Assembly: GCA_947629205.1 (NCBI GenBank)
Contig: CANRCV010000004.1
Span: forward strand, 441-64,440
Reading direction: 5' to 3'
Length of the DNA stretch: 64,000 nt
From: an uncultured Bacilli bacterium
GTDB lineage: Bacteria > Bacillota_I > Bacilli_A > RF39 > UBA660
Every line of letters starts with the position of its first letter. The first letter of the stretch is position 1. Shown one piece after another: positions 16,285 through 40,738 of this stretch. The notes under the pieces were generated by a model that ran no database searches, was not told the DNA's origin, and was given only the letters and a program-made list of their open reading frames with translations. The position numbers and the translations under genes are program-made.

Positions 16285-16719
16285 TTAAATATCTATACTA
16301 AAGAATGTAGAATCATCAGGAACAAATCCAAATTTTTTATAACAGGTATGAGCAGGAATACGAAAATTTCTACTCCATAGTTTCATAGCAGTACAATTAT
16401 GATTCTTACATATATTTTGTACGACTTCTAACATTTTGGTTGCAATGTGATGCTTACGATACTCCGGTTTTACACAAACATGATTTAAGATAGCATAGGT
16501 ATTCATATCTTCAAAAATTGTCGGTATAATAGCAATTCTTGTATGAGCAATAATTTTATCATCTAATTTTCCTACTACATATATTTGATTACGATCTTTG
16601 TATTCTTGAAAAAGTTCTATTGCTTCTTCATACTTTGTTTCTTCTTCAAAACATTCATTACATAAATCTACAATTCCTCGTATATCAGCAACTGTTGCAA
16701 TTTGAAATTCGACATTCAT
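16285..16719 (-). CDS. GNAT-family N-acetyltransferase
   Basis: 144 aa; acetyl-CoA binding-like segment (HHIATKMLEVV); RBS GAGGTG 9 nt upstream. Confidence 0.7.
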   Translation of the reverse strand: MNVEFQIATVADIRGIVDLCNECFEEETKYEEAIELFQEYKDRNQIYVVGKLDDKIIAHTRIAIIPTIFEDMNTYAILNHVCVKPEYRKHHIATKMLEVVQNICKNHNCTAMKLWSRNFRIPAHTCYKKFGFVPDDSTFFSIDI

Positions 16720-16740: not shown

Positions 16741-16772
16741 TTTAAGTTTATAACCCCCCCCCCGTGTGTCAA
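16741..16772 (-). promoter_or_regulatory. Putative sigmaA promoter of GNAT gene with poly(G) in the spacer
   Basis: Minus strand TTGACA(16772..16767)-CAC-G10-T-TATAAA(16752..16747); spacer 14 nt in the sequenced state, 17 nt if the tract were G13. Confidence 0.45.
16754..16763 (-). repeat. Homopolymeric G10 tract (C10 on + strand) in promoter spacer
   Basis: Ten consecutive C on + strand in an otherwise ~28% GC region. Confidence 0.9.
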
Positions 16773-33789: not shown

Positions 33790-36690
33790 TTATTTTTTAA
33801 TGATATTGTTTACATTTACTTGATACTTATCAAATCGTTTCGTAACTCTTCCTTGAATTTCTGCAATATCTTTCACTTTTAAATTTTCCAATAACCCAAT
33901 TTGTTTATGAAAAACAACAAAGGTAGAAGCATTGGTTTCATCACTTGCTTCCACAAATGCCATCTCTTCATTATTTTTTGTTTTGAGTCTCTTTATACTC
34001 TCTATTAATACCACGCATCTTACTTGTTTGTCAAAATAATTTTTTATATTTTTTAATTTCATAATGTTTGAATCATTATAAATACTTGTTGGATGATTGG
34101 TAATATAAAACCCATAGCTTTCTAATTCTTTTTGATTTACATTTTCTTCCATAGGATATTGTTCTAATACGGGTTTTAAAAGGAGTGGAGAATCTACACT
34201 ACTTACTAATTCTGCATAATTAAAAACTGCAGGTATATTTTTAAGTAGAGTTGTCATATTTCCAAATTCTTCTAAAATCCCAGCATAGATTAAAGATTCC
34301 ACCATTTTTGTCGTTATAGAATAAGGTTTCATTCTACTAACAAAATCTATAAAATCGGTAAAAAGCCCTTTTTCTCGTTCTTTTAATAAATCTTCTATAA
34401 AATGAGAACTTAAACCCTTTACAATAGAAAAAGGTAGTATCAATTGGCTTTCGATAATCTTATATTCTTTTTCACTTTTATTAATAGAAGGATGGACAAT
34501 TTCTAAATCTAATTTTTTAGCTTCTCTTAAATATTCTTTGGTTTTAATTTCACTCCCAATCGATAGATTTAATAAATTCGTCATAAAATACATAGGAAAT
34601 TTTACTTTTAAATAGGCCATTTGATACCCAATTAGAGCATAAGAAACAGAATGGGATTTATTAAAACCATATCCAGCAAATTTTAATATTAAATCGTATA
34701 ATTCTTCAATCTTTTGTTTTGGATAGCCTTTTTGTAAAGCTCCATTTATAAACTTAACTCGTTCTTGCTCTATAATTTCTTTTTTCTTTTTACTCATAGC
34801 TCTTCTTATAATATCTGCCTCTGAAAAACGATATCCACCAATTTCTACTAATATTTGCATAACTTGTTCTTGATACACAATAATACCTTGTGTTTCTTTT
34901 AAAATGGGTTCTAATTCTGGCAAAAGATAAGTTACTTTCTCTTTTTTTTCTTTTCTTCTTACAAAAGTAGATAAATTATCCATAGGTCCAGGACGATATA
35001 AGGCGATAACAGCCACTAAATCACTAAATTTTGTTGGTTTTACTTTTTGTAAAAAAGAACGCATTCCCATACTTTCAAATTGAAATATTCCAGTTGTATT
35101 GGCATCACTAAAGAGTTTTAAAACCTCGGCATCTTCTAAATTAATTTTATTAATATTTAAATGTTTCCCCGTATCTTTTAAAATTAAATCTAAAGTACTT
35201 GATAAAATATATAAATTTTTAATCGCTAATAAATCCATTTTTAAAAGGCCTAATTCTTCTAAGTATTCCATCGTAATTCCGGTTGATATAGAATTACCTA
35301 CTTTTAATATAGGAATAACATCATCTAAATTAACTCTTGATATAACTATACCTGCTGCATGTGTTGAAATATTTTTCTTAAATCCTTCTATTTTCATCGC
35401 CAGTTTATAAACCTTTTGTAAAGAAGAATTATTTTTTAACATATTTTTTACTTTTTCTTTTTCTAAATTCTCTTTTAAATTTTTATTTGGTTCTATTTCT
35501 TTTAAAAGTTGTTCAAAATGTCCATCTTCTATTTCTACTATTCTTGCTATTTCCCTTAATGCCAGTTTACTTTTTAAAGTAGCAAACGTCATAATTGAAG
35601 CTACTTTCTTTTCACCATAACGTTGTTTAATATATTCAATAACCTCTCCTCTTCGTAAGTTATCAAAATCAATATCAATATCGGGCATGGTTACTCTTTC
35701 TGGATTTAAAAATCTTTCAAAAAGCAAATGATATTTTAAAGGATCTATATCCGTAATCCCTAGAGTATAACAAACAAGGGAACCCACAGCACTCCCTCTT
35801 CCAGGACCTACATAAATATGATTCTTTTTAGCAAATAAAACATAATCATATACAATTAAAATATAATCCACAAATCCCATTTTATTAATAACACTTAATT
35901 CATACTCTAATCGTTTTTCATATTCATCTGTCACTTGATTATTTAATCTTTTCTTTAATCCTTTTTCCGTTAAATTTTTTAAATAAGCATAACGATCTTT
36001 TATTTCAGCATTATAAGAAGGAATATAATTTTCATTTTTAGGAATACAAATCGTAATTAAATCACTAAACTCTTTCGTTGTTTTTTGATCACTTTCATTG
36101 TCGTTTTCATGATAATAATTATTTTCATACTCTTTTAATTGATAATCTTTTGCTTTTGTATCCGTACGAATCATATTTAAATAATCTAAATAAAGTGTAT
36201 CTTCTTTTTTTAAAGAATGAATGTCATTTAAATAAACTATATTTTTACTTTGTAATAAAGCATGGGTTTTTTCTAATTCATTTTGGTATGCCAAATAAAC
36301 GATTTCATAAATAGAAGAAAGTTCTTTATAGTAAGAATAAGTTGCATAAGGAAGAACACATAGTATATTTTTTTTATAAAGTTCTAATTCTACAATACTA
36401 ATTTCTTTTTCCATCACAAGAGTATGAATTTTTAATAAATTTTGATATCCTACATAATCTTTAGAATATAAATAAATTGGTAGATGATTTAAGGTGATTT
36501 CTAAACCAATAATTGGTTTTATATTATTTTCTATACACTTATTATAAAATTCCATAACACCATATAAATTCTCATCTACAATAGCACAAGTTGAAATATT
36601 TTTTTCTTTTAAAAAATCTATTAAAGAATCAATGGTAATTGTACTTTTTAATAAGGAATAATCTGTTGTAATTTTAAGTGGTATAAGCAT
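33790..36690 (-). CDS. dnaE: DNA polymerase III alpha subunit, DnaE type
   Basis: ~967 aa from the third Met (RBS GGGGGAGGAA 8 nt upstream); PHP domain, GFNKSHSVSYA pol core motif, OB fold; directly downstream of polC. Confidence 0.9.
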   Translation of the reverse strand: MLIPLKITTDYSLLKSTITIDSLIDFLKEKNISTCAIVDENLYGVMEFYNKCIENNIKPIIGLEITLNHLPIYLYSKDYVGYQNLLKIHTLVMEKEISIVELELYKKNILCVLPYATYSYYKELSSIYEIVYLAYQNELEKTHALLQSKNIVYLNDIHSLKKEDTLYLDYLNMIRTDTKAKDYQLKEYENNYYHENDNESDQKTTKEFSDLITICIPKNENYIPSYNAEIKDRYAYLKNLTEKGLKKRLNNQVTDEYEKRLEYELSVINKMGFVDYILIVYDYVLFAKKNHIYVGPGRGSAVGSLVCYTLGITDIDPLKYHLLFERFLNPERVTMPDIDIDFDNLRRGEVIEYIKQRYGEKKVASIMTFATLKSKLALREIARIVEIEDGHFEQLLKEIEPNKNLKENLEKEKVKNMLKNNSSLQKVYKLAMKIEGFKKNISTHAAGIVISRVNLDDVIPILKVGNSISTGITMEYLEELGLLKMDLLAIKNLYILSSTLDLILKDTGKHLNINKINLEDAEVLKLFSDANTTGIFQFESMGMRSFLQKVKPTKFSDLVAVIALYRPGPMDNLSTFVRRKEKKEKVTYLLPELEPILKETQGIIVYQEQVMQILVEIGGYRFSEADIIRRAMSKKKKEIIEQERVKFINGALQKGYPKQKIEELYDLILKFAGYGFNKSHSVSYALIGYQMAYLKVKFPMYFMTNLLNLSIGSEIKTKEYLREAKKLDLEIVHPSINKSEKEYKIIESQLILPFSIVKGLSSHFIEDLLKEREKGLFTDFIDFVSRMKPYSITTKMVESLIYAGILEEFGNMTTLLKNIPAVFNYAELVSSVDSPLLLKPVLEQYPMEENVNQKELESYGFYITNHPTSIYNDSNIMKLKNIKNYFDKQVRCVVLIESIKRLKTKNNEEMAFVEASDETNASTFVVFHKQIGLLENLKVKDIAEIQGRVTKRFDKYQVNVNNIIKK

Positions 36691-36786
36691 AAGACATTCC
36701 TCCCCCATCATGGTATATTTTTATTATAACATGAACAAATGTTTAAGGGTATAGGTAAGTTTCAAAAAATGAAAAAAAGGAAAAAT

Positions 36787-37917
36787 TTATTTTCCTAAAT
36801 ATGTAATTCTTGCATATCCATTTCCAGAATTTCCAACCATTGTATTTTGTGTTCCATCATGTTTGGGCATAACCTCTTTCCCGGATTTCATTTCCGTATT
36901 TGTAAAAACAAGTCCGGAATAATGAATAGAATCTCCAGTATGTTGAATGTTATTTTCAACAGATTCTTGTTTTATGGCATTACATCCCTCATATCCAGAA
37001 ATAAAGGATGAACCACCTGAGGCTGAGGTTGCATTTGTAATTCCTTCACTACGACCACCATAATAGCCTCCTCCAGCACCAGCAACACCACAATCGCCAT
37101 TACCAACACTACCTGATCCAGCACATTGGCCATCTCCAACCCCACTTTGTCCTTTACCAAAAGCATAACCAGTTGTTTGATTGATTGCTGATTTTGTTCC
37201 AACTAAATCAGCAGATAAGCCACCTCCTGCTCCTGGAGCGTAACTCCAGCTAGCTCCTCCACCACCTGCTGCAACCATAATTCTAGATTTTAAACTAGCA
37301 AAAGAGTCCCACAAACCATTTACAAGACGAATGTCGGTGGCTCCTCCTCCACCACCACTACTTTCATCATCTGCTTTATCAGGAACACCATTACCACCAC
37401 CATTATATCCACCAAGAGATTCTACTCTTTTACTAGCATTTGCACCAGCACCACCTACATAAAGATATAATGTTTGCTCTTTTTGTAAGCTTATTTCACC
37501 TTTGGTATATGCACCATTTCCTCCATCATTATAAGACACACCTTGATAAAGAGATTTTCCACCTTCAGCTCCCCATAATTCTATTTTATATTTTCCTTGT
37601 AATGGTACTGTAAATGATTGTTCACTTCCTGTATAATCAAATGTCCATTCTGTTCCTTCTTTTATAATAAAATTAATGCTACATGTCGTTGGACTCTTTT
37701 TTAGACTTGATACAAATAATCCCCATCTCTCTGTATCCCATTCTCCAATGGCATCATTATCACATTCTACAATTATATCTCCATAGTTTCCTTTTTGTGG
37801 AACGGTATTTGTTGTTTCTCCATTTATTTTCAAAGCAATGATATTTACATCGTTTTTTAAACTAAAATCAGGTACAACGCCTTTTATAACATCAAAACTT
37901 TTTTCTGTTTTATACAT
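36787..37917 (-). CDS. Phase-variable surface protein with ALK/LTK-like glycine-rich domain; annotated ORF is the out-of-frame body of a longer gene
   Basis: 376 aa ORF; no RBS before its Met; reading frame open upstream through the G10 tract; Gly-rich region GGGYYGGRSEGITNATSASGGSSFISG resembles ALK GRD GGGGYIGGNAASNND...DGVSFIS (Pfam Gly_rich). Confidence 0.7.
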   Translation of the reverse strand: MYKTEKSFDVIKGVVPDFSLKNDVNIIALKINGETTNTVPQKGNYGDIIVECDNDAIGEWDTERWGLFVSSLKKSPTTCSINFIIKEGTEWTFDYTGSEQSFTVPLQGKYKIELWGAEGGKSLYQGVSYNDGGNGAYTKGEISLQKEQTLYLYVGGAGANASKRVESLGGYNGGGNGVPDKADDESSGGGGGATDIRLVNGLWDSFASLKSRIMVAAGGGGASWSYAPGAGGGLSADLVGTKSAINQTTGYAFGKGQSGVGDGQCAGSGSVGNGDCGVAGAGGGYYGGRSEGITNATSASGGSSFISGYEGCNAIKQESVENNIQHTGDSIHYSGLVFTNTEMKSGKEVMPKHDGTQNTMVGNSGNGYARITYLGK

Positions 37918-38035
37918 AGCAAAAGTATGGTATAGTGTTATACCACCAATTAATAAAATAATTCCTATAATTGTACTAATTAAAATTTGTTTTTGTTTTT
38001 TATTTTTGATAAATCTTTCTAATCTAGGTTTGTGT

Positions 38036-38098
38036 TTATCTAATATACCCCCCCCCCAGACTAGACTCTAGAGTTGGGAGGTTTTTATTTTTCTTCAT
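38036..38098 (-). other. Leader ORF ending just after the G10 tract (OFF-state product of the phase-variable gene)
   Basis: GGAGGAAG RBS + ATG 38098; encodes MKKNKNLPTLESSLGGGYIR-stop; a 9-G allele would fuse it in frame to ...ILDKHKPRLERFIKNKKQKQILISTIIGIILLIGGITLYHTFA-MYKTEKSF (TM anchor). Confidence 0.7.
38048..38057 (-). repeat. Homopolymeric G10 tract (C10 on + strand) inside 5' coding region
   Basis: Ten consecutive C at 38048..38057; frame analysis shows G9 (or G12) gives an in-frame full-length protein. Confidence 0.9.
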
Positions 38099-38123
38099 TT
38101 TTTCTTCCTCCTACTATACTTTT

Positions 38124-38152
38124 ATTATAAACGAATTTCTTATTCTTGAAAA
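38124..38152 (-). promoter_or_regulatory. SigmaA-type promoter of phase-variable gene copy A
   Basis: Minus strand TTTTCA(38152..38147)-17 nt-TATAAT(38129..38124); identical in copy B. Confidence 0.5.
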
Positions 38153-38181
38153 GTTTTTTTCATAGTAATCCCTATTCTTCC

Positions 38182-38229
38182 TTTGACAATTAAACTGAAA
38201 TTTCATCATTTTTCAGTTTAATTGTCAAA
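38182..38229. repeat. Perfect palindromic element (19-bp stem, 10-nt loop), copy 2; likely terminator of upstream paralog
   Basis: tttgacaattaaactgaaa-tttcatcatt-tttcagtttaattgtcaaa; core and loop shared with 22081..22118. Confidence 0.75.
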
Positions 38230-38234
38230 TACTT

Positions 38235-39371
38235 TTACTGATTTTCATTTATAAATATTCTATAAGGATTTTGTTGAGTTCCATTACCACTTTGAAATAA
38301 TACTTTTGATTTAAGATAGAAAGACGGATAAATTTTAGTATTACTATAATATCCAGCATGAAAGTTCCATAATTGGCCTGTTTCATCCATGTACCATGCA
38401 TCTGGATTCCCAGAGATCGTTGTTGTCAAAAACCATTGTTTGTTCTTGCTAAATATCCAATTATTTATTACACATGAGCTATTATCACTCTCATTATTCC
38501 ATAGTTTTAAAGATTGTTGCATACATTGTGTTCTAGTTTTTAAAGCTGATCCGCTTGTTGCATATCCATAATCACTTGCATATATTAATCCAATTTTTGT
38601 ATTAGTTGATTTAGAATAACCATCACGAACACTATTTCCACGTTCTGCTTTATAAAATTCAGTTACGGTACTTAAATTGGTTTCCCCTAAATACCATTTT
38701 GCAATATCAATATACGTTTGATATGATTTTATACTACCCCAAAATTCTTCATTTAAAATATTTGTATTTAATTCGCTACTAATCCAATTATTTTGTTGTA
38801 ATTCTGGATGTCCATACCAAGAAGCTTCACTGTAGTTAACATATTTAATTAATTTTACTCTATCTTCATAAATTCCATTCTCACTTGATTGAGTAGGTAT
38901 TATACCTATAATTCGATATAAATTGTTTTCACTACATTCTCCATTTTCTTCTAAACATACATAGTTATTAGGATTAGCACCTATATATCGATAGTCCGTT
39001 TTAGCACTTTCACCAGTTTGATCAGTAGCTTCGTGTGTTTGCACTATTAATCCACTTGCTCCATCTGCAACATTTGTTACTTTTGATTTTAAATAAGTAG
39101 AAAATATTGGAGCATTAAAATCAATGGTACATTTAATTCTACTTTGATTATTGCTGTTTTTTAATTTTAAAGACCATGTTGTATCATCCCAATCTGCTTC
39201 TACTCCACCATCACATTTTATATCTTTCTTAGTAAATCCTTCATTTTGATTAGGAAAAGAAACATCACTTGTTTTTACACCATTTATACTAAAAGCAAGT
39301 GTTACATCTCCACTACTAAAATCAGGCACAACACCTTTTATAACATTAAAAGACTTTTCCATTTTATACAT
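38235..39371 (-). CDS. Phase-variable surface protein paralog (divergent C-terminal domain); annotated ORF is out-of-frame body
   Basis: 378 aa; first ~85 aa homologous to 36787..37917 product (MYK.EKSF.VIKGVVPDFS...EWD..W); C-terminal Trp/Tyr-rich domain ending GNGTQQNPYRI; same upstream architecture. Confidence 0.7.
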   Translation of the reverse strand: MYKMEKSFNVIKGVVPDFSSGDVTLAFSINGVKTSDVSFPNQNEGFTKKDIKCDGGVEADWDDTTWSLKLKNSNNQSRIKCTIDFNAPIFSTYLKSKVTNVADGASGLIVQTHEATDQTGESAKTDYRYIGANPNNYVCLEENGECSENNLYRIIGIIPTQSSENGIYEDRVKLIKYVNYSEASWYGHPELQQNNWISSELNTNILNEEFWGSIKSYQTYIDIAKWYLGETNLSTVTEFYKAERGNSVRDGYSKSTNTKIGLIYASDYGYATSGSALKTRTQCMQQSLKLWNNESDNSSCVINNWIFSKNKQWFLTTTISGNPDAWYMDETGQLWNFHAGYYSNTKIYPSFYLKSKVLFQSGNGTQQNPYRIFINENQ

Positions 39372-39486
39372 AGCAAAAGTGCGGTATAAAGTTATACCAC
39401 CAATTAGTACTATGATTCCTACTATTGTACTAATTAAAATTTGTTTTTGTTTTTTATTTTTAATAAATCTTTCTAATCTAGGTTTA

Positions 39487-39549
39487 TTATTTAATATACC
39501 CCCCCCCCAGACTAGATTTGCTGGTTGGGAGGTTTTTATTTTTCTTCAT
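39487..39549 (-). other. Leader ORF ending after G10 tract, copy B
   Basis: ATG 39549; MKKNKNLPTSKSSLGGGYIK-stop; G9 allele fuses to ...ILNNKPRLERFIKNKKQKQILISTIVGIIVLIGGITLYRTFA-MYKMEKSF. Confidence 0.7.
39499..39508 (-). repeat. Homopolymeric G10 tract (C10 on + strand) inside 5' coding region, copy B
   Basis: Ten consecutive C at 39499..39508; same -1 requirement for in-frame fusion as copy A. Confidence 0.9.
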
Positions 39550-39574
39550 TTTTTCTTCCTCCTACTATATTTTT

Positions 39575-39603
39575 ATTATAAACGAATTTCTTATTCTTGA
39601 AAA
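39575..39603 (-). promoter_or_regulatory. SigmaA-type promoter of phase-variable gene copy B
   Basis: TTTTCA(39603..39598)-17 nt-TATAAT(39580..39575), within a block nearly identical to copy A. Confidence 0.5.
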
Positions 39604-39655
39604 GTATCTTTTTTCATATTAATCCCTTTTAAGATATCATCGAATATCAAAATAA

Positions 39656-40738
39656 TTAATTGCTACAATTATTGTAGCATTTTTTCATATAATCATCTGT
39701 CATACCTGCAATAAAGTCAATGACTTTACGTGCTATTGTTGTACTACTTATATACTCTTCTGTCATATCTTTTAAGAATTTTTTATAAATCTCTGATTTG
39801 GTATTATGTATTTCAATATCATTTTTATATTTATCAAATAAAGTTCTAAACATCTTCTCATACATTTTAATCTCTTGTTTCGTATTGGCTTTTAAATAAA
39901 TATTTTCCATATTAAAGGCTTTTAAATCCACTAAAGCTTTAAAAATGGGTTTACTCATTTTAATATAAGGTTTTCCTTTACTATTTTTGATGATATCACT
40001 TACAAAAGTATTGACGATATTTTTATTTTCTTCTCCAATTAACTTGGTAATATTTTTGGGTAAGTTTTCTTTTTTGATGACACCTAAACGGATGGCATCT
40101 TCAATATCTTTTCCAATGTATGCAATAATATCACTAATTCTTACAACACAACCTTCTAACGTCATAGGTCTTAATTTTTTAATCATTCTCTTATCCACAT
40201 AGCATTGTTTATATTCCTCTAAAAACTCTTCTTTTGTTTTTTTAACAGGACGATATTCATTTAAAGGAAGTTCTCCGTTATGACACATAATAGCATCCAA
40301 AACTTGAACCGTTATGTTTCTACCACGGCCATTTTGTTCTAGATTCATTAAAACACGAACGCTTTCTATATTATGATTGAAATAGCCTTCTCCATTTTCT
40401 AAACTAATTTCATTTAAAATACTTTCTCCCACATGACCAAAAGGAACGTGTCCTAAATCATGACCAAGAGCTGCTGCTTCAATTAAGTCTTCATTTAATT
40501 TTAAGTTTCTGCCAATAGTTCTAGCTATTTTACTTACCAATTGAACGTGGATCATACGTTTTGTAATATGATCATCTTCATTGTAACTAAACACTTGGGT
40601 TTTATCTGCATATCTCGTATAACTCAAGGAATAAATAATACGATCAATATCACGAAAAAAATCCGTTCTATACGGGTCTTTTTCTTCTTTTTTTAAACGA
40701 ATAGCTTCTTCATTTACACAAGCATAGCGACTCAACAT
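39656..40738 (-). CDS. dgt: dGTPase-like HD-domain deoxynucleoside triphosphate triphosphohydrolase
   Basis: 360 aa; HD motif AALGHDLGHVPFGH and downstream His/Asp. Confidence 0.75.
   Translation of the reverse strand: MLSRYACVNEEAIRLKKEEKDPYRTDFFRDIDRIIYSLSYTRYADKTQVFSYNEDDHITKRMIHVQLVSKIARTIGRNLKLNEDLIEAAALGHDLGHVPFGHVGESILNEISLENGEGYFNHNIESVRVLMNLEQNGRGRNITVQVLDAIMCHNGELPLNEYRPVKKTKEEFLEEYKQCYVDKRMIKKLRPMTLEGCVVRISDIIAYIGKDIEDAIRLGVIKKENLPKNITKLIGEENKNIVNTFVSDIIKNSKGKPYIKMSKPIFKALVDLKAFNMENIYLKANTKQEIKMYEKMFRTLFDKYKNDIEIHNTKSEIYKKFLKDMTEEYISSTTIARKVIDFIAGMTDDYMKKCYNNCSN

What the first reader, a model, noticed from the sequence alone, without database searches (positions are those of the whole stretch)
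36787..37560. Bacterial surface protein with an ALK/LTK-type glycine-rich (polyglycine-II) domain
The Gly-rich half (WGAEGG...GGNGAYTKGE...YVGGAGAN...SSGGGGGATDIRL...AAGGGGASWSYAPGAGGG...GVAGAGGGYYGGRSEGITNATSASGGSSFISGYEG) matches the signature of the ALK/LTK receptor glycine-rich domain (GGGGGGYIGGNAASNND...DGVSFISP; Pfam Gly_rich PF12810). That domain folds into a lattice of polyglycine-II helices. Bacterial members are essentially uncharacterised. Here one is membrane-anchored, phase-variable and paired with a non-Gly paralog.
Basis: inference. Interest (0 to 1): 0.6.

Follow-up and report, generated by a model that had tools for sequence, protein, structure and literature searches.

The report
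Phase-variable bacterial protein with ALK-type glycine-rich domain
This gene from an uncultured low-GC gut-type bacterium encodes a membrane-anchored protein whose outer part is a true relative of the glycine-rich ligand-binding domain of the human ALK/LTK receptors; a run of ten G bases currently keeps it switched off, and it is one ordinary member of a very large, functionally unstudied bacterial and phage family.

Summary
The observation and the family assignment hold.

- **Family:** ORF 36787..37917 (-) hits Pfam PF12810 (ALK_LTK_GRD) at E=2.3e-53. Four composition-preserving shuffles give no hit.
- **Homology to ALK/LTK:** a profile of 85 homologues finds only LTK/ALK/SCD-2 in the PDB. 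A confident AlphaFold model (pLDDT 88.7) matches only ALK/LTK structures by Foldseek (21 hits, then a cliff).
- **Gene structure:** the gene really starts at ATG 38098. A G10 tract (38048-38057) stops translation after 20 codons. G9 would fuse a basic leader and a transmembrane helix to an Ig-like stalk and the glycine-rich head.
- **Paralogue:** the upstream gene has the same promoter, leader, G10 and stalk, but a C-type-lectin-like head.
- **Phase variation:** relatives carry the same leader with G9 (in frame) or G10. The tract uses codons that are otherwise very rare in the window. This fits a maintained switch, but switching was not shown within one population.
- **Novelty:** low. The family has at least 7,035 clusters, is already annotated, and is common in phage virion and tail-fibre proteins. 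In the one studied phage member, the C-terminal part, not this domain, was enough to bind cells.
- **Function:** inferred only. The likely role is a surface recognition head on a rigid scaffold.

The parts
38124..38152 (-). Promoter-like site TTTTCA-17 nt-TATAAT upstream of the GRD gene
   Evidence: Consensus scan, 10 of 12 matches. An identical element lies upstream of the paralogue at 39575-39603. Consensus match only; function not shown.
38107..38111 (-). Shine-Dalgarno sequence GGAGG, 8 nt before the true start codon
   Evidence: Read from the sequence. Conserved in all six leaders compared.
38036..38098 (-). Leader reading frame: ATG 38098, 14 codons, the G tract, then a TAA stop at 38036-38038. 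In the G10 state it encodes only MKKNKNLPTLESSLGGGYIR*.
   Evidence: Translation. The exact 26-nt leader occurs twice in the window against 0 expected.
38073..38081 (-). Conserved CCTCCCAAC element in the leader. It uses the rare Leu codon CTC and is predicted to pair with the G tract.
   Evidence: Invariant in six leaders from two species. CTC is 1.4% of Leu codons in the window's long ORFs. RNAalifold predicts a CCUCCC:GGGGGG hairpin with no covariation and z=-2.06, which is weak support.
38048..38057 (-). G10 homopolymer, the candidate slipped-strand switch. G9 or G12 is in frame (ON); G10 is OFF.
   Evidence: The window has three G>=8 tracts against 0.14 expected pattern matches. GGG is 7% of Gly codons, and the longest G run in the 71-Gly-codon body is 4. 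Relatives carry G9 (L010; P0241 is in frame) or G10.
37930..37986 (-). Transmembrane or signal-anchor helix ILISTIIGIILLIGGITLY, preceded by the basic stretch RLERFIKNKKQKQ. It is read only in the ON frame.
   Evidence: Reconstructed ON translation. Kyte-Doolittle 19-residue mean is 2.45. Topology and cleavage after TFA were not tested.
37654..37869 (-). Ig-like beta-sandwich stalk domain (about aa 17-88 of the 376-aa ORF) with two conserved Cys. It is shared with the paralogue.
   Evidence: AF2 strands E24-E84 with pLDDT 85-95. 43% identity to the paralogue over aa 1-85.
36790..37653 (-). ALK/LTK-type TG head (TNF-like sandwich plus glycine-rich region), aa 89-376. The Pfam PF12810 match covers aa 107-374 (36796-37599).
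   Evidence: Conserved Gly-rich core segments alternate with variable loops.
36787..37917 (-). The 376-aa ORF as public annotation calls it (internal ATG, no SD, no signal or TM)
   Evidence: P0001 is identical in sequence and carries a precomputed PF12810 assignment.
38183..38228 (-). Perfect 18-bp inverted repeat (TTGACAATTAAACTGAAA / TTTCAGTTTAATTGTCAA, 10-nt loop) between the paralogue's stop and the GRD gene's promoter. Possible terminator.
   Evidence: Read from the sequence. Not called by the terminator scan, because it is AT-rich and has no T run.
38235..39549 (-). Paralogue gene: same promoter (39575-39603), leader ATG 39549, G10 at 39499-39508 (also OFF), same TM and Ig-like stalk. 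The head is different and is C-type-lectin-like or DUF6273-related.
   Evidence: The model has pLDDT 90.5. Its only PDB fold hit is T. ramosa IgAse 9qa6 at E=9e-7. 9 of 80 homologues hit DUF6273.

Best explanation
This is a contingency (phase-variable) gene for a small cell-envelope protein. Its distal head is a genuine homologue of the ALK/LTK 'TG' supradomain, a TNF-like beta-sandwich packed against a glycine-rich polyglycine-II-type lattice.

**Shown from the sequence.**
- A promoter-like site and a Shine-Dalgarno sequence drive an ATG at 38098.
- After 14 codons comes a G10 tract, and in this state translation stops at codon 21.
- The 376-codon body has no start codon or ribosome-binding site of its own upstream of its membrane helix. 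The gene is therefore OFF in this assembly.

**Inferred from the sequence and from relatives.**
- Slipped-strand mispairing to G9 (or G12) would fuse the leader to the body.
- That gives a 436-aa precursor: a Lys-rich cytoplasmic stretch, one transmembrane or signal-anchor helix, an Ig-like stalk with a Cys pair, and the 288-aa TG head outside the membrane.

**Inferred by homology and analogy.**
- The conserved Gly-rich segments form a rigid scaffold.
- The variable loops (about aa 121-130, 161-190, 221-280, 291-300, 341-360) form a recognition surface for an unknown external ligand.
- ON/OFF switching, together with a neighbouring gene that has the same switch and stalk but a lectin-like head, would diversify the cell surface within a population. 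The likely selective pressures are immunity, phage or niche.
For: **Family and fold.**
- PF12810 at E=2.3e-53, and no hit for four shuffles.
- The family profile hits only LTK/ALK/SCD-2 in the PDB.
- AF2 pLDDT 88.7, with Foldseek PDB hits exclusively ALK/LTK.

**Switch.**
- G10 with an in-frame stop, and an ON reconstruction.
- Only three G>=8 tracts in 64 kb, against 0.14 expected pattern matches.
- The tract and its flanks use codons that are otherwise very rare: CTC 1.4%, CTG 1.8%, GGG 7%. The Gly-rich body avoids G runs longer than 4.
- The same leader in another species carries G9 (in frame, P0241) or G10. The 66%-identical protein P0003 reads through in frame as ...SSLGGGILD....

**Extracellular head.**
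- There is a TM helix.
- Homologues carry prepilin N-termini, Listeria-Bacteroides repeats, CBM and LamG domains, or are giant proteins with up to 11 copies of the domain.

**Recognition role.**
- Conservation shows a conserved core with variable, indel-rich loops.
- The fold is common in phage proteins: CDMH1 gp30 sits next to the tail-collar fibre, and 104 BFVD hits include virion structural and tail-collar proteins.
- PtsHN10M is a homotrimeric receptor-binding protein, and 'hyp' co-determines host range (PMC9615553; bioRxiv 10.1101/2023.10.16.562632).
- The paralogue's head is lectin-like (PMC12237041).
Against: - No function has been shown for any cellular bacterial member.
- In the one tested phage protein, the fragment holding the glycine-rich domain (aa 1-269) bound neither cells nor the partner fibre. 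The C-terminal part (259-570) was sufficient for cell binding (PMC9615553). The domain may therefore be a scaffold or oligomerisation module rather than the binder.
- Five of the six tracts read in DNA are G10. Length variation at one locus within one population was not observed.
- The organism appears to be walled: there is a SigF/G-like sigma factor in the window, and FemAB and LysM-M23 genes in related loci. A protein of about 400 aa anchored in the membrane may not reach the outer surface.
- TM-scores to ALK/LTK are moderate (0.31-0.50), and the PGII geometry could not be checked on coordinates.
Confidence: 0.55

Rival explanations
1. Same protein and same switch, but the glycine-rich TG domain is a structural module (a rigid spacer, oligomerisation domain or wall-zone scaffold) rather than the ligand-binding surface.
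For: In PtsHN10M the fragment with the Gly-rich domain did not bind cells or the partner fibre, and the protein is a homotrimer (PMC9615553). In ALK the GlyR part is described mainly as a scaffold (10.1101/2023.11.25.568672). Tandem arrays of up to 11 copies in giant proteins suggest stalk-like use.
Against: Here the domain is the terminal and only large extracellular module, so no other candidate binder exists. Its loops are hypervariable and indel-rich around a fixed core. The paralogue places a lectin-like domain at the same position.
Confidence: 0.25
2. The G10 tract is not a heritable ON/OFF switch. Instead it is a site of transcriptional slippage or +1 ribosomal frameshifting that gives constant low-level expression from the G10 template.
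For: Five of the six tracts read in DNA are G10, including both window genes. The flanks are conserved, with a predicted CCUCCC:G-tract hairpin. From general knowledge, homopolymers of 9 or more are known slippage sites for RNA polymerase.
Against: G9 in-frame alleles exist (L010, and P0003 by inference). The hairpin has no covariation and z is only -2.06. One or two ON alleles among six or seven tracts is what a random three-state switch would give.
Confidence: 0.12
3. The gene is a decaying pseudogene, and the frameshift at the G tract is simply a lesion.
For: The frame is broken in this assembly. The 76%-identical relative P0002 has an in-frame deletion that removes a conserved core segment.
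Against: The 376-codon body is intact. The neighbouring paralogue has the identical leader and the same G10. The tract is built from very rare codons yet is conserved across species. In-frame alleles exist.
Confidence: 0.06
4. It is a prophage-derived tail-fibre or receptor-binding protein remnant, not a cellular gene.
For: The domain is frequent in phage virion and tail proteins.
Against: The neighbours are polC, dnaE, an HD hydrolase and ftsK, with no phage genes. The protein has an N-terminal membrane anchor rather than a fibre-attachment domain. Related genomes carry several chromosomal copies between housekeeping genes.
Confidence: 0.02

Closest known systems
ALK / LTK extracellular TG supradomain (TNF-like plus glycine-rich; PDB 7nx0, 7nx1, 7lrz, 7ls0, 7mzw, 7n00; C. 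elegans SCD-2 7lir)
   Same: Same Pfam family (PF12810). Non-glycine motifs are shared: YKIELWGAxGG / YLISAYGAAGG, LYIYVGG / LYILVGQ, GGGGGATDIRL / GGGGGATYVF, IMVAAGGGG / LLVAAGGGG, GGGYYGG / GGGYRGG, GGSSFIS / DGVSFIS. These are the only significant PDB fold neighbours. Beta strands from both ends of the domain flank the Gly-rich insert.
   Different: There is no kinase and no MAM, LDLa or EGF module. The domain sits on a bacterial membrane anchor with an Ig-like stalk. There are about 10-11 Gly-rich segments, closer to SCD-2's ten helices than to the 14 of human ALK (10.1101/2023.11.25.568672). Sequence identity is 14-22% and TM is only 0.31-0.50. No ALKAL-like ligand is known in bacteria.
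C. difficile phage receptor-binding proteins with an N-terminal Gly-rich domain (PtsHN10M; CDMH1 gp30; phiCD508 gp68; 'hyp' of phiCD1801 and phiCD2301)
   Same: Same domain: gp30 hits PF12810 at E=2.6e-49, with about 42% identity over 110 aa. It is an extracellular recognition protein of a Firmicute-associated entity.
   Different: In the phage proteins the domain is N-terminal and is followed by a helical region and a C-terminal receptor-binding region. That C-terminal part is sufficient for binding SlpA-bearing cells, while the Gly-rich fragment is not (PMC9615553). Here the domain is the C-terminal head of a membrane-anchored cellular protein.
Phage S16 gp38 adhesin (PGII sandwich, PDB 6F45) and mycobacterial PE_PGRS domains
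   Same: Analogous design: a conserved glycine-rich PPII/PGII bundle acts as a stable platform for variable surface loops on an exposed recognition or antigenic protein (10.1101/2023.11.25.568672; PMC10216338).
   Different: No detectable homology. These proteins do not appear among the Foldseek PDB hits, and their topology is different.
Poly-G contingency loci of Neisseria, Haemophilus and Campylobacter (for example hmbR, hpuAB)
   Same: A G tract of 9-10 inside the 5' coding region of an envelope protein sets the reading frame (PMC3786947 for the Neisseria precedent). As in Campylobacter (my own knowledge), the genome is AT-rich and the G tracts stand out.
   Different: The host is an uncultured low-GC Bacillota lineage. 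The tract sits in a conserved portable leader upstream of the signal anchor, and that leader is shared by genes with different heads.
Mycoplasma variable surface protein families (Vlp, Vsa) - from my own knowledge, not tested here
   Same: A conserved 5' expression, leader and anchor region is joined to divergent extracellular bodies. Homopolymer-dependent switching occurs, and members are in multigene families.
   Different: Those are lipoproteins with repetitive low-complexity bodies, and switching occurs in the promoter spacer or by inversion. Here the heads are folded globular domains and the tract is within the coding sequence.

Membership tests
Pfam PF12810 ALK_LTK_GRD (ALK/LTK glycine-rich domain) | Match to the family HMM above the curated gathering score, over most of the profile | tested here: met
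   182.1 bits against a cut-off of 24.5, E=2.3e-53, profile positions 7-243 of 243.
Pfam PF12810 ALK_LTK_GRD | The match is sequence-specific, not due to glycine composition | tested here: met
   Four composition-preserving shuffles give no hit at E<=10. Non-Gly motifs align with LTK and SCD-2.
ALK/LTK TG supradomain (structure) | Overall fold: a TNF-like beta-sandwich built from N- and C-terminal strands, with the Gly-rich subdomain inserted | tested here: met
   AF2 pLDDT 88.7, pTM 0.88, with strands at 90-153, 194-216 and 339-375 flanking non-H/E Gly-rich segments. Foldseek PDB: the 21 best hits are all ALK/LTK, E 2e-10 to 1e-6, TM 0.31-0.50, then E>0.1.
ALK/LTK TG supradomain (structure) | Hexagonal lattice of polyglycine-II helices (backbone phi/psi and inter-helix H-bonds) | not testable with these tools
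   Model coordinates could not be read. The only indirect evidence is Gly-rich segments with pLDDT 95-98 and no DSSP helix or strand.
ALK/LTK TG supradomain (function) | Binds an ALKAL/Augmentor-type cytokine and drives receptor dimerisation | not tested
   No kinase or EGF module is present, and no ligand candidate was looked for. There is no reason to expect this function.
Homopolymer (slipped-strand) phase-variable contingency gene | Homopolymer tract of 8 or more inside the 5' coding region (or promoter) of the gene | tested here: met
   G10 at 38048-38057, 14 codons after ATG 38098.
Homopolymer (slipped-strand) phase-variable contingency gene | A change of one repeat unit toggles between the full-length product and a truncated one | tested here: met
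   G10 gives a 20-aa peptide and a stop. G9 gives a 436-aa protein with a TM helix. There is no alternative start in the body frame upstream of the TM.
Homopolymer (slipped-strand) phase-variable contingency gene | Tract length differs between isolates or populations at the same locus | tested here: inconclusive
   G9 (L010) versus G10 (L006, L007, a second tract in L010, and the window twice) was seen among paralogous or orthologous loci. P0003 is in frame. The same locus in two samples (L006, L007) is G10 in both. Two metagenome scans found no further copies.
Homopolymer (slipped-strand) phase-variable contingency gene | Read-level length heterogeneity within a clonal population, with reversible switching | not testable with these tools
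   No reads or cultures are available.
Type IV pilin / pseudopilin-borne GRD proteins (PF07963 N_methyl plus PF12810) | Prepilin leader ending in G, followed by F/M-T-L-x-E | tested here: not met
   The window N-terminus is KNKKQKQ-ILISTIIGIILLIGGITLY, with no GFTLIE motif. Homologues P0020, P0025 and P0030 do have it.

The most novel reading that the evidence does not exclude
The conserved leader (SD, ATG, CCTCCCAAC, 13-15 nt, G9/10, TATATT) may be a portable switch cassette in an uncultured gut Bacilli lineage. Recombination at the cassette would attach the same promoter, switch, anchor and stalk to interchangeable folded heads (ALK-type TG domains, lectin-like domains and others). The result would be a Mycoplasma-like variable surface system built from globular recognition domains. 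The TG heads would then be the cellular counterparts of phage receptor-binding modules and the prokaryotic source of the metazoan ALK/LTK ligand-binding domain. Two observations hint at this. L007 and L010 carry 100% identical GRD bodies behind different leaders and in different contexts. L006 has L007's leader and context but a different body.
Probability: 0.3. Interest if true: 0.6.

Novelty: new member of a known kind. Interest (0 to 1): 0.35.

Why it matters
The ALK/LTK glycine-rich domain drew attention in 2021 as an unprecedented polyglycine-II lattice. The PDB copy searched here holds no prokaryotic or phage member of the fold. I found no paper on a cellular bacterial member.

This small protein of about 290 structured head residues models with high confidence. 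That makes it a convenient target for the first bacterial structure, and for asking what the fold binds outside animals.

The poly-G leader shared by genes with different heads would also extend homopolymer phase variation to a poorly known group of gut Bacilli. For the finding as stated, however, the domain assignment is already in Pfam and in public annotation, so this is confirmation rather than discovery.

Tried and rejected
- **Single-sequence phmmer against the PDB:** no ALK hit. A family profile was needed.
- **Exact-protein look-ups of P0001, P0002 and P0003:** not on record. The source genome and its closest relatives could therefore not be read. Cluster look-up gave no names.
- **Genome-contig scan with the protein:** only distant relatives were found (Clostridium sp. 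CAG:1193, Erysipelotrichaceae MAG, Coprobacillus sp. CAG:605, Prevotella/Segatella).
- **Two metagenome scans for the leader and G tract:** 0 hits, then 3 chance hits (L011-L013, unrelated). No wider tract-length distribution could be built.
- **NCBIfam:** no hit for either protein.
- **Rfam on 36600-39800:** only a chance snoRNA hit at E=0.6.
- **Leader RNA structure:** a CCUCCC:G-tract hairpin is predicted, but with no covariation and z=-2.06. It is not claimed as functional.
- **Compositional artefact, prophage remnant and type IV pilin:** all considered and rejected (see the rival explanations and membership tests).
- **De Munck et al. 2021:** not held in the library under either the DOI or the PMC id tried. 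I could not check whether the ALK/LTK structure papers discuss bacterial homologues.
Full report
**What is there.** Glycine is 23% of aa 107-374. The Pfam match begins at aa 107, and the predicted structural domain begins near aa 89.

**Is the resemblance real?** Against Pfam-A the protein hits PF12810 (ALK_LTK_GRD) at E=2.3e-53. The score is 182 bits against a cut-off of 24.5, over profile positions 7-243 of 243. I shuffled aa 107-374 four times while keeping its composition, and none of the shuffles hit PF12810 even at E<=10.

A single-sequence search of PDB sequences finds no ALK. A profile built from 85 homologues finds LTK 7nx0 (E=1.6e-8), C. elegans SCD-2 7lir (4.2e-8) and seven human ALK constructs (about 5e-7), and nothing else. 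The alignment matches non-glycine motifs too: YKIELWGAxGG, LYxYVG, GGGGGATD, xxVAAGGGG, GGGYYGG, G(G/V)SFIS.

An AlphaFold2 model built on that alignment is confident (mean pLDDT 88.7, pTM 0.88). It has beta strands at both ends of the domain and long Gly-rich segments with pLDDT 95-98 and no helix or strand. Foldseek against the PDB returns 21 significant hits, all ALK or LTK TG/GRD structures (E 2e-10 to 1e-6, TM 0.31-0.50). The next hit is at E=0.13.

**Gene anatomy.** The ORF as publicly annotated (P0001, identical, PF12810 precomputed) starts at an internal ATG with no ribosome-binding site. Upstream lie, in order:
- a promoter-like TTTTCA-17-TATAAT (38152-38124);
- a GGAGG Shine-Dalgarno sequence;
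- an ATG at 38098;
- 14 codons, then a G10 tract (38048-38057).

With G10 the frame ends at TAA after 20 codons (MKKNKNLPTLESSLGGGYIR*). With G9 the leader is fused to the body. That gives MKKNKNLPTLESSLGGGILDKHKPRLERFIKNKKQKQ-ILISTIIGIILLIGGITLY-HTFA-MYKTEKS..., a Lys-rich stretch and a 19-residue hydrophobic helix (hydropathy 2.45) ahead of the body. In the body frame there is no ATG, GTG or TTG between the upstream stop and the internal ATG. The G10 allele is therefore OFF, or at best makes an unsecreted protein.

The model shows an Ig-like sandwich at aa 17-88, followed by the TG head.

**The paralogue.** The gene immediately upstream (38235-39371, with its leader ATG at 39549) has the same promoter-like site, the identical 26-nt leader start and a G10 tract at 39499-39508 that is also out of frame. 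Its TM helix and Ig-like stalk are also the same. The two 5' regions are about 88% identical at the DNA level, and the proteins are 43% identical over residues 1-85 and unrelated beyond that.

Its head has no Pfam hit. It models well (pLDDT 90.5), and its only significant PDB neighbour is the Thomasclavelia ramosa IgA peptidase 9qa6 (E=9e-7). That enzyme's N-terminal domain is an enlarged C-type-lectin-like domain that is dispensable for catalysis (PMC12237041). I could not see which part of 9qa6 aligned, and the paralogue lacks an HExxH motif. Nine of 80 homologues hit DUF6273.

**Is the G tract a maintained switch?** Four lines of evidence bear on this.
- **Rarity.** G>=8 tracts are very rare in this 28%-GC window: 3 tracts (9 pattern matches) against 0.14 expected.
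- **Codon usage.** The tract and its flanks use codons that are otherwise almost absent: Leu CTC 1.4%, Leu CTG 1.8%, Gly GGG 7%. The 71 Gly codons of the body include only two GGG, and the longest G run there is 4.
- **Conservation.** The same leader design (GGAGG, ATG, CCTCCCAAC, 13-15 nt, (A/C)GTCTG, Gn, TATATT) occurs in a second species whose protein bodies are only about 46% identical. There it carries G10 (L006, L007 and a second tract in L010) or G9 (L010, where P0241 reads through in frame).
- **In-frame relative.** The 66%-identical relative P0003 is also in frame (…SSLGGGILD…).

This fits a contingency locus. However, I saw length differences only between related loci, not at one locus within a population. 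Two metagenome scans for more copies found nothing relevant. Transcriptional slippage on a fixed G10 template remains possible. The predicted CCUCCC:G-tract hairpin has no covariation and a weak z-score.

**How big and how known is the family?**
- A word-indexed search gave at least 3,015 homologues, nearly all already labelled PF12810. NCBI names them 'glycine rich domain-containing protein'.
- An exhaustive phmmer search against 1.84 billion cluster representatives gave 7,035 clusters at E<=1e-3 and 843 at E<=1e-30. These include giant proteins of up to 7,663 aa with up to 11 copies.
- Partner domains include prepilin N-termini, Listeria-Bacteroides repeats, CBM_4_9 and LamG. All are extracytoplasmic.

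The domain is also common in viruses.
- 31 C. difficile phage records carry it.
- In phage CDMH1, gp30 (PF12810, E=2.6e-49, aa 15-254) lies directly after the tail-collar fibre gene and before holin and endolysin.
- Six PHROG families of unknown function match.
- 104 BFVD models match the fold. They include gut phages (TM 0.57-0.60), Caulobacter phages, cyanophage virion structural proteins, a tail-collar protein and giant viruses.

**What the literature says.** I found no paper on a cellular bacterial member. Reviews of PPII/PGII bundles list ALK and LTK but no prokaryotic homologues (10.1101/2023.11.25.568672; PMC13243192).

The phage homologue PtsHN10M (54% identical to the CDMH1 protein) is a homotrimeric receptor-binding protein that binds the low-molecular-weight SlpA subunit. 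Its Pfam glycine-rich domain (aa 14-267) was noted. Residues 259-570 were sufficient for cell binding, and the fragment 1-269 bound neither cells nor the partner fibre protein (PMC9615553).

In phiCD1801 and phiCD2301, a 496-564-aa 'hyp' gene downstream of the tail fibre is required together with the fibre to transfer host range (10.1101/2023.10.16.562632). A phage of host CD2301 is among my hits. The equivalent gp68 of phiCD508 was not resolved by cryo-EM (PMC11948020).

The domain therefore travels with recognition machinery, but its own role there is still open.

**Mechanism proposed.**
- *Shown:* the gene structure, the OFF state, and the family and fold assignment.
- *Inferred:* slipped-strand change to G9 turns on a signal-anchored protein with an Ig-like stalk and a TG head outside the membrane. 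The head's conserved Gly-rich core (entropy 0.4-1.5 bits at aa 111-120, 191-220, 281-290, 301-340) carries variable, indel-rich loops (aa 121-130, 161-190, 221-280, 291-300, 341-360). Those loops would bind an unknown ligand. Switching, plus a neighbouring gene with a lectin-like head on the same chassis, would diversify the surface.

The main rival is that the TG domain is a scaffold or oligomerisation module, as the phage data allow. One caveat is that the organism looks walled: there is a sporulation-type sigma factor in the window, and FemAB and LysM-M23 genes in relatives. A short membrane-anchored protein may therefore act in the wall zone, or be released after cleavage at ...HTFA.

**Verdict.** The thing itself is an ordinary member of a very large family that is already annotated but functionally uncharacterised. 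The added value lies in three points:
- the corrected gene structure, since public annotation misses the leader, switch and anchor;
- the link to phage receptor-binding proteins;
- the hint of a portable poly-G leader shared by different heads in this lineage.

Noticed in passing
window 16754-16763 (-), upstream of ORF 16285-16719 (-): A third G10 tract lies between a perfect TTGACA and TATAAA/TAAACT, upstream of a GNAT-type acetyltransferase ORF. It is a candidate promoter-spacer phase-variation site. All three G10 tracts in the window are on the same strand.
   Followed up: partly
L006 7487-7700, L007 7509-7722, L010 7452-7700: L007 gene 2 (P0019) and L010 gene 2 (P0241) are 100% identical over 433 aa from the G tract onward, but their leaders and genomic contexts differ. 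L006, from the same sample as L010, has L007's context and leader (99% identical upstream) but a different 556-aa body. This is either recombination at the leader/G tract between loci, or a MAG mis-assembly at a roughly 70-nt repeat.
   Followed up: partly
L010 8953-8962: The contig ends inside a leader and its G10 tract. Other contigs of this species (L007, L008, L009) also end close to family genes. The genes appear to sit in tandem arrays that break assemblies, so copy number is probably underestimated.
   Followed up: no
L006 5380-5661, L008 7029-7250, L010 5381-5611, L014 9697-9915: Family members that lack the poly-G leader (P0016, P0122, and the 560-aa gene of L010) each have a small divergently transcribed HTH_3/XRE regulator gene directly upstream. 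This suggests two alternative control modes for the family. No such gene flanks the window pair.
   Followed up: no
P0016 (L006 5714-6985) versus P0241 (L010 7480-8829): The C-terminal 89 aa are 93% identical while the rest of the proteins is much more divergent. This mosaic pattern suggests gene conversion among GRD paralogues.
   Followed up: no
P0002 (76%-identical relative of the window protein): P0002 lacks about 32 aa between two GGGG runs (SSGGGGGATDIRL...AAGGGGASWSY becomes SGGGASYNF). This is an in-frame deletion between Gly-codon repeats that removes the most conserved core segment, so the copy is probably inactive.
   Followed up: no
window 38030-38125 (-) and 39481-39576 (-): The invariant CCTCCC in the leader is an anti-Shine-Dalgarno-like sequence. 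It is predicted to pair with the G tract (dG -20.3 kcal/mol, z -2.06, no covariation), and it could alternatively pair with the GGAGG ribosome-binding site. Any regulatory or slippage-promoting role is untested.
   Followed up: partly
window 38183-38228 (-): A perfect 18-bp AT-rich inverted repeat lies between the two genes and begins with TTGACA. It is a possible terminator of the paralogue and was not detected by the consensus terminator scan.
   Followed up: no
window 36787-37917 and 38235-39371: Public annotation (P0001, P0121) calls both genes from the internal ATG. It therefore misses the leader, the G tract and the membrane helix. In another species the caller used a TTG that reads through G10 (P0019).
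   Followed up: yes
proteins P0242-P0372: Giant proteins of 2,000-7,663 aa carry 3-11 tandem copies of the GRD. This architecture of the ALK-type domain is not mentioned in the structural literature I could read.
   Followed up: no
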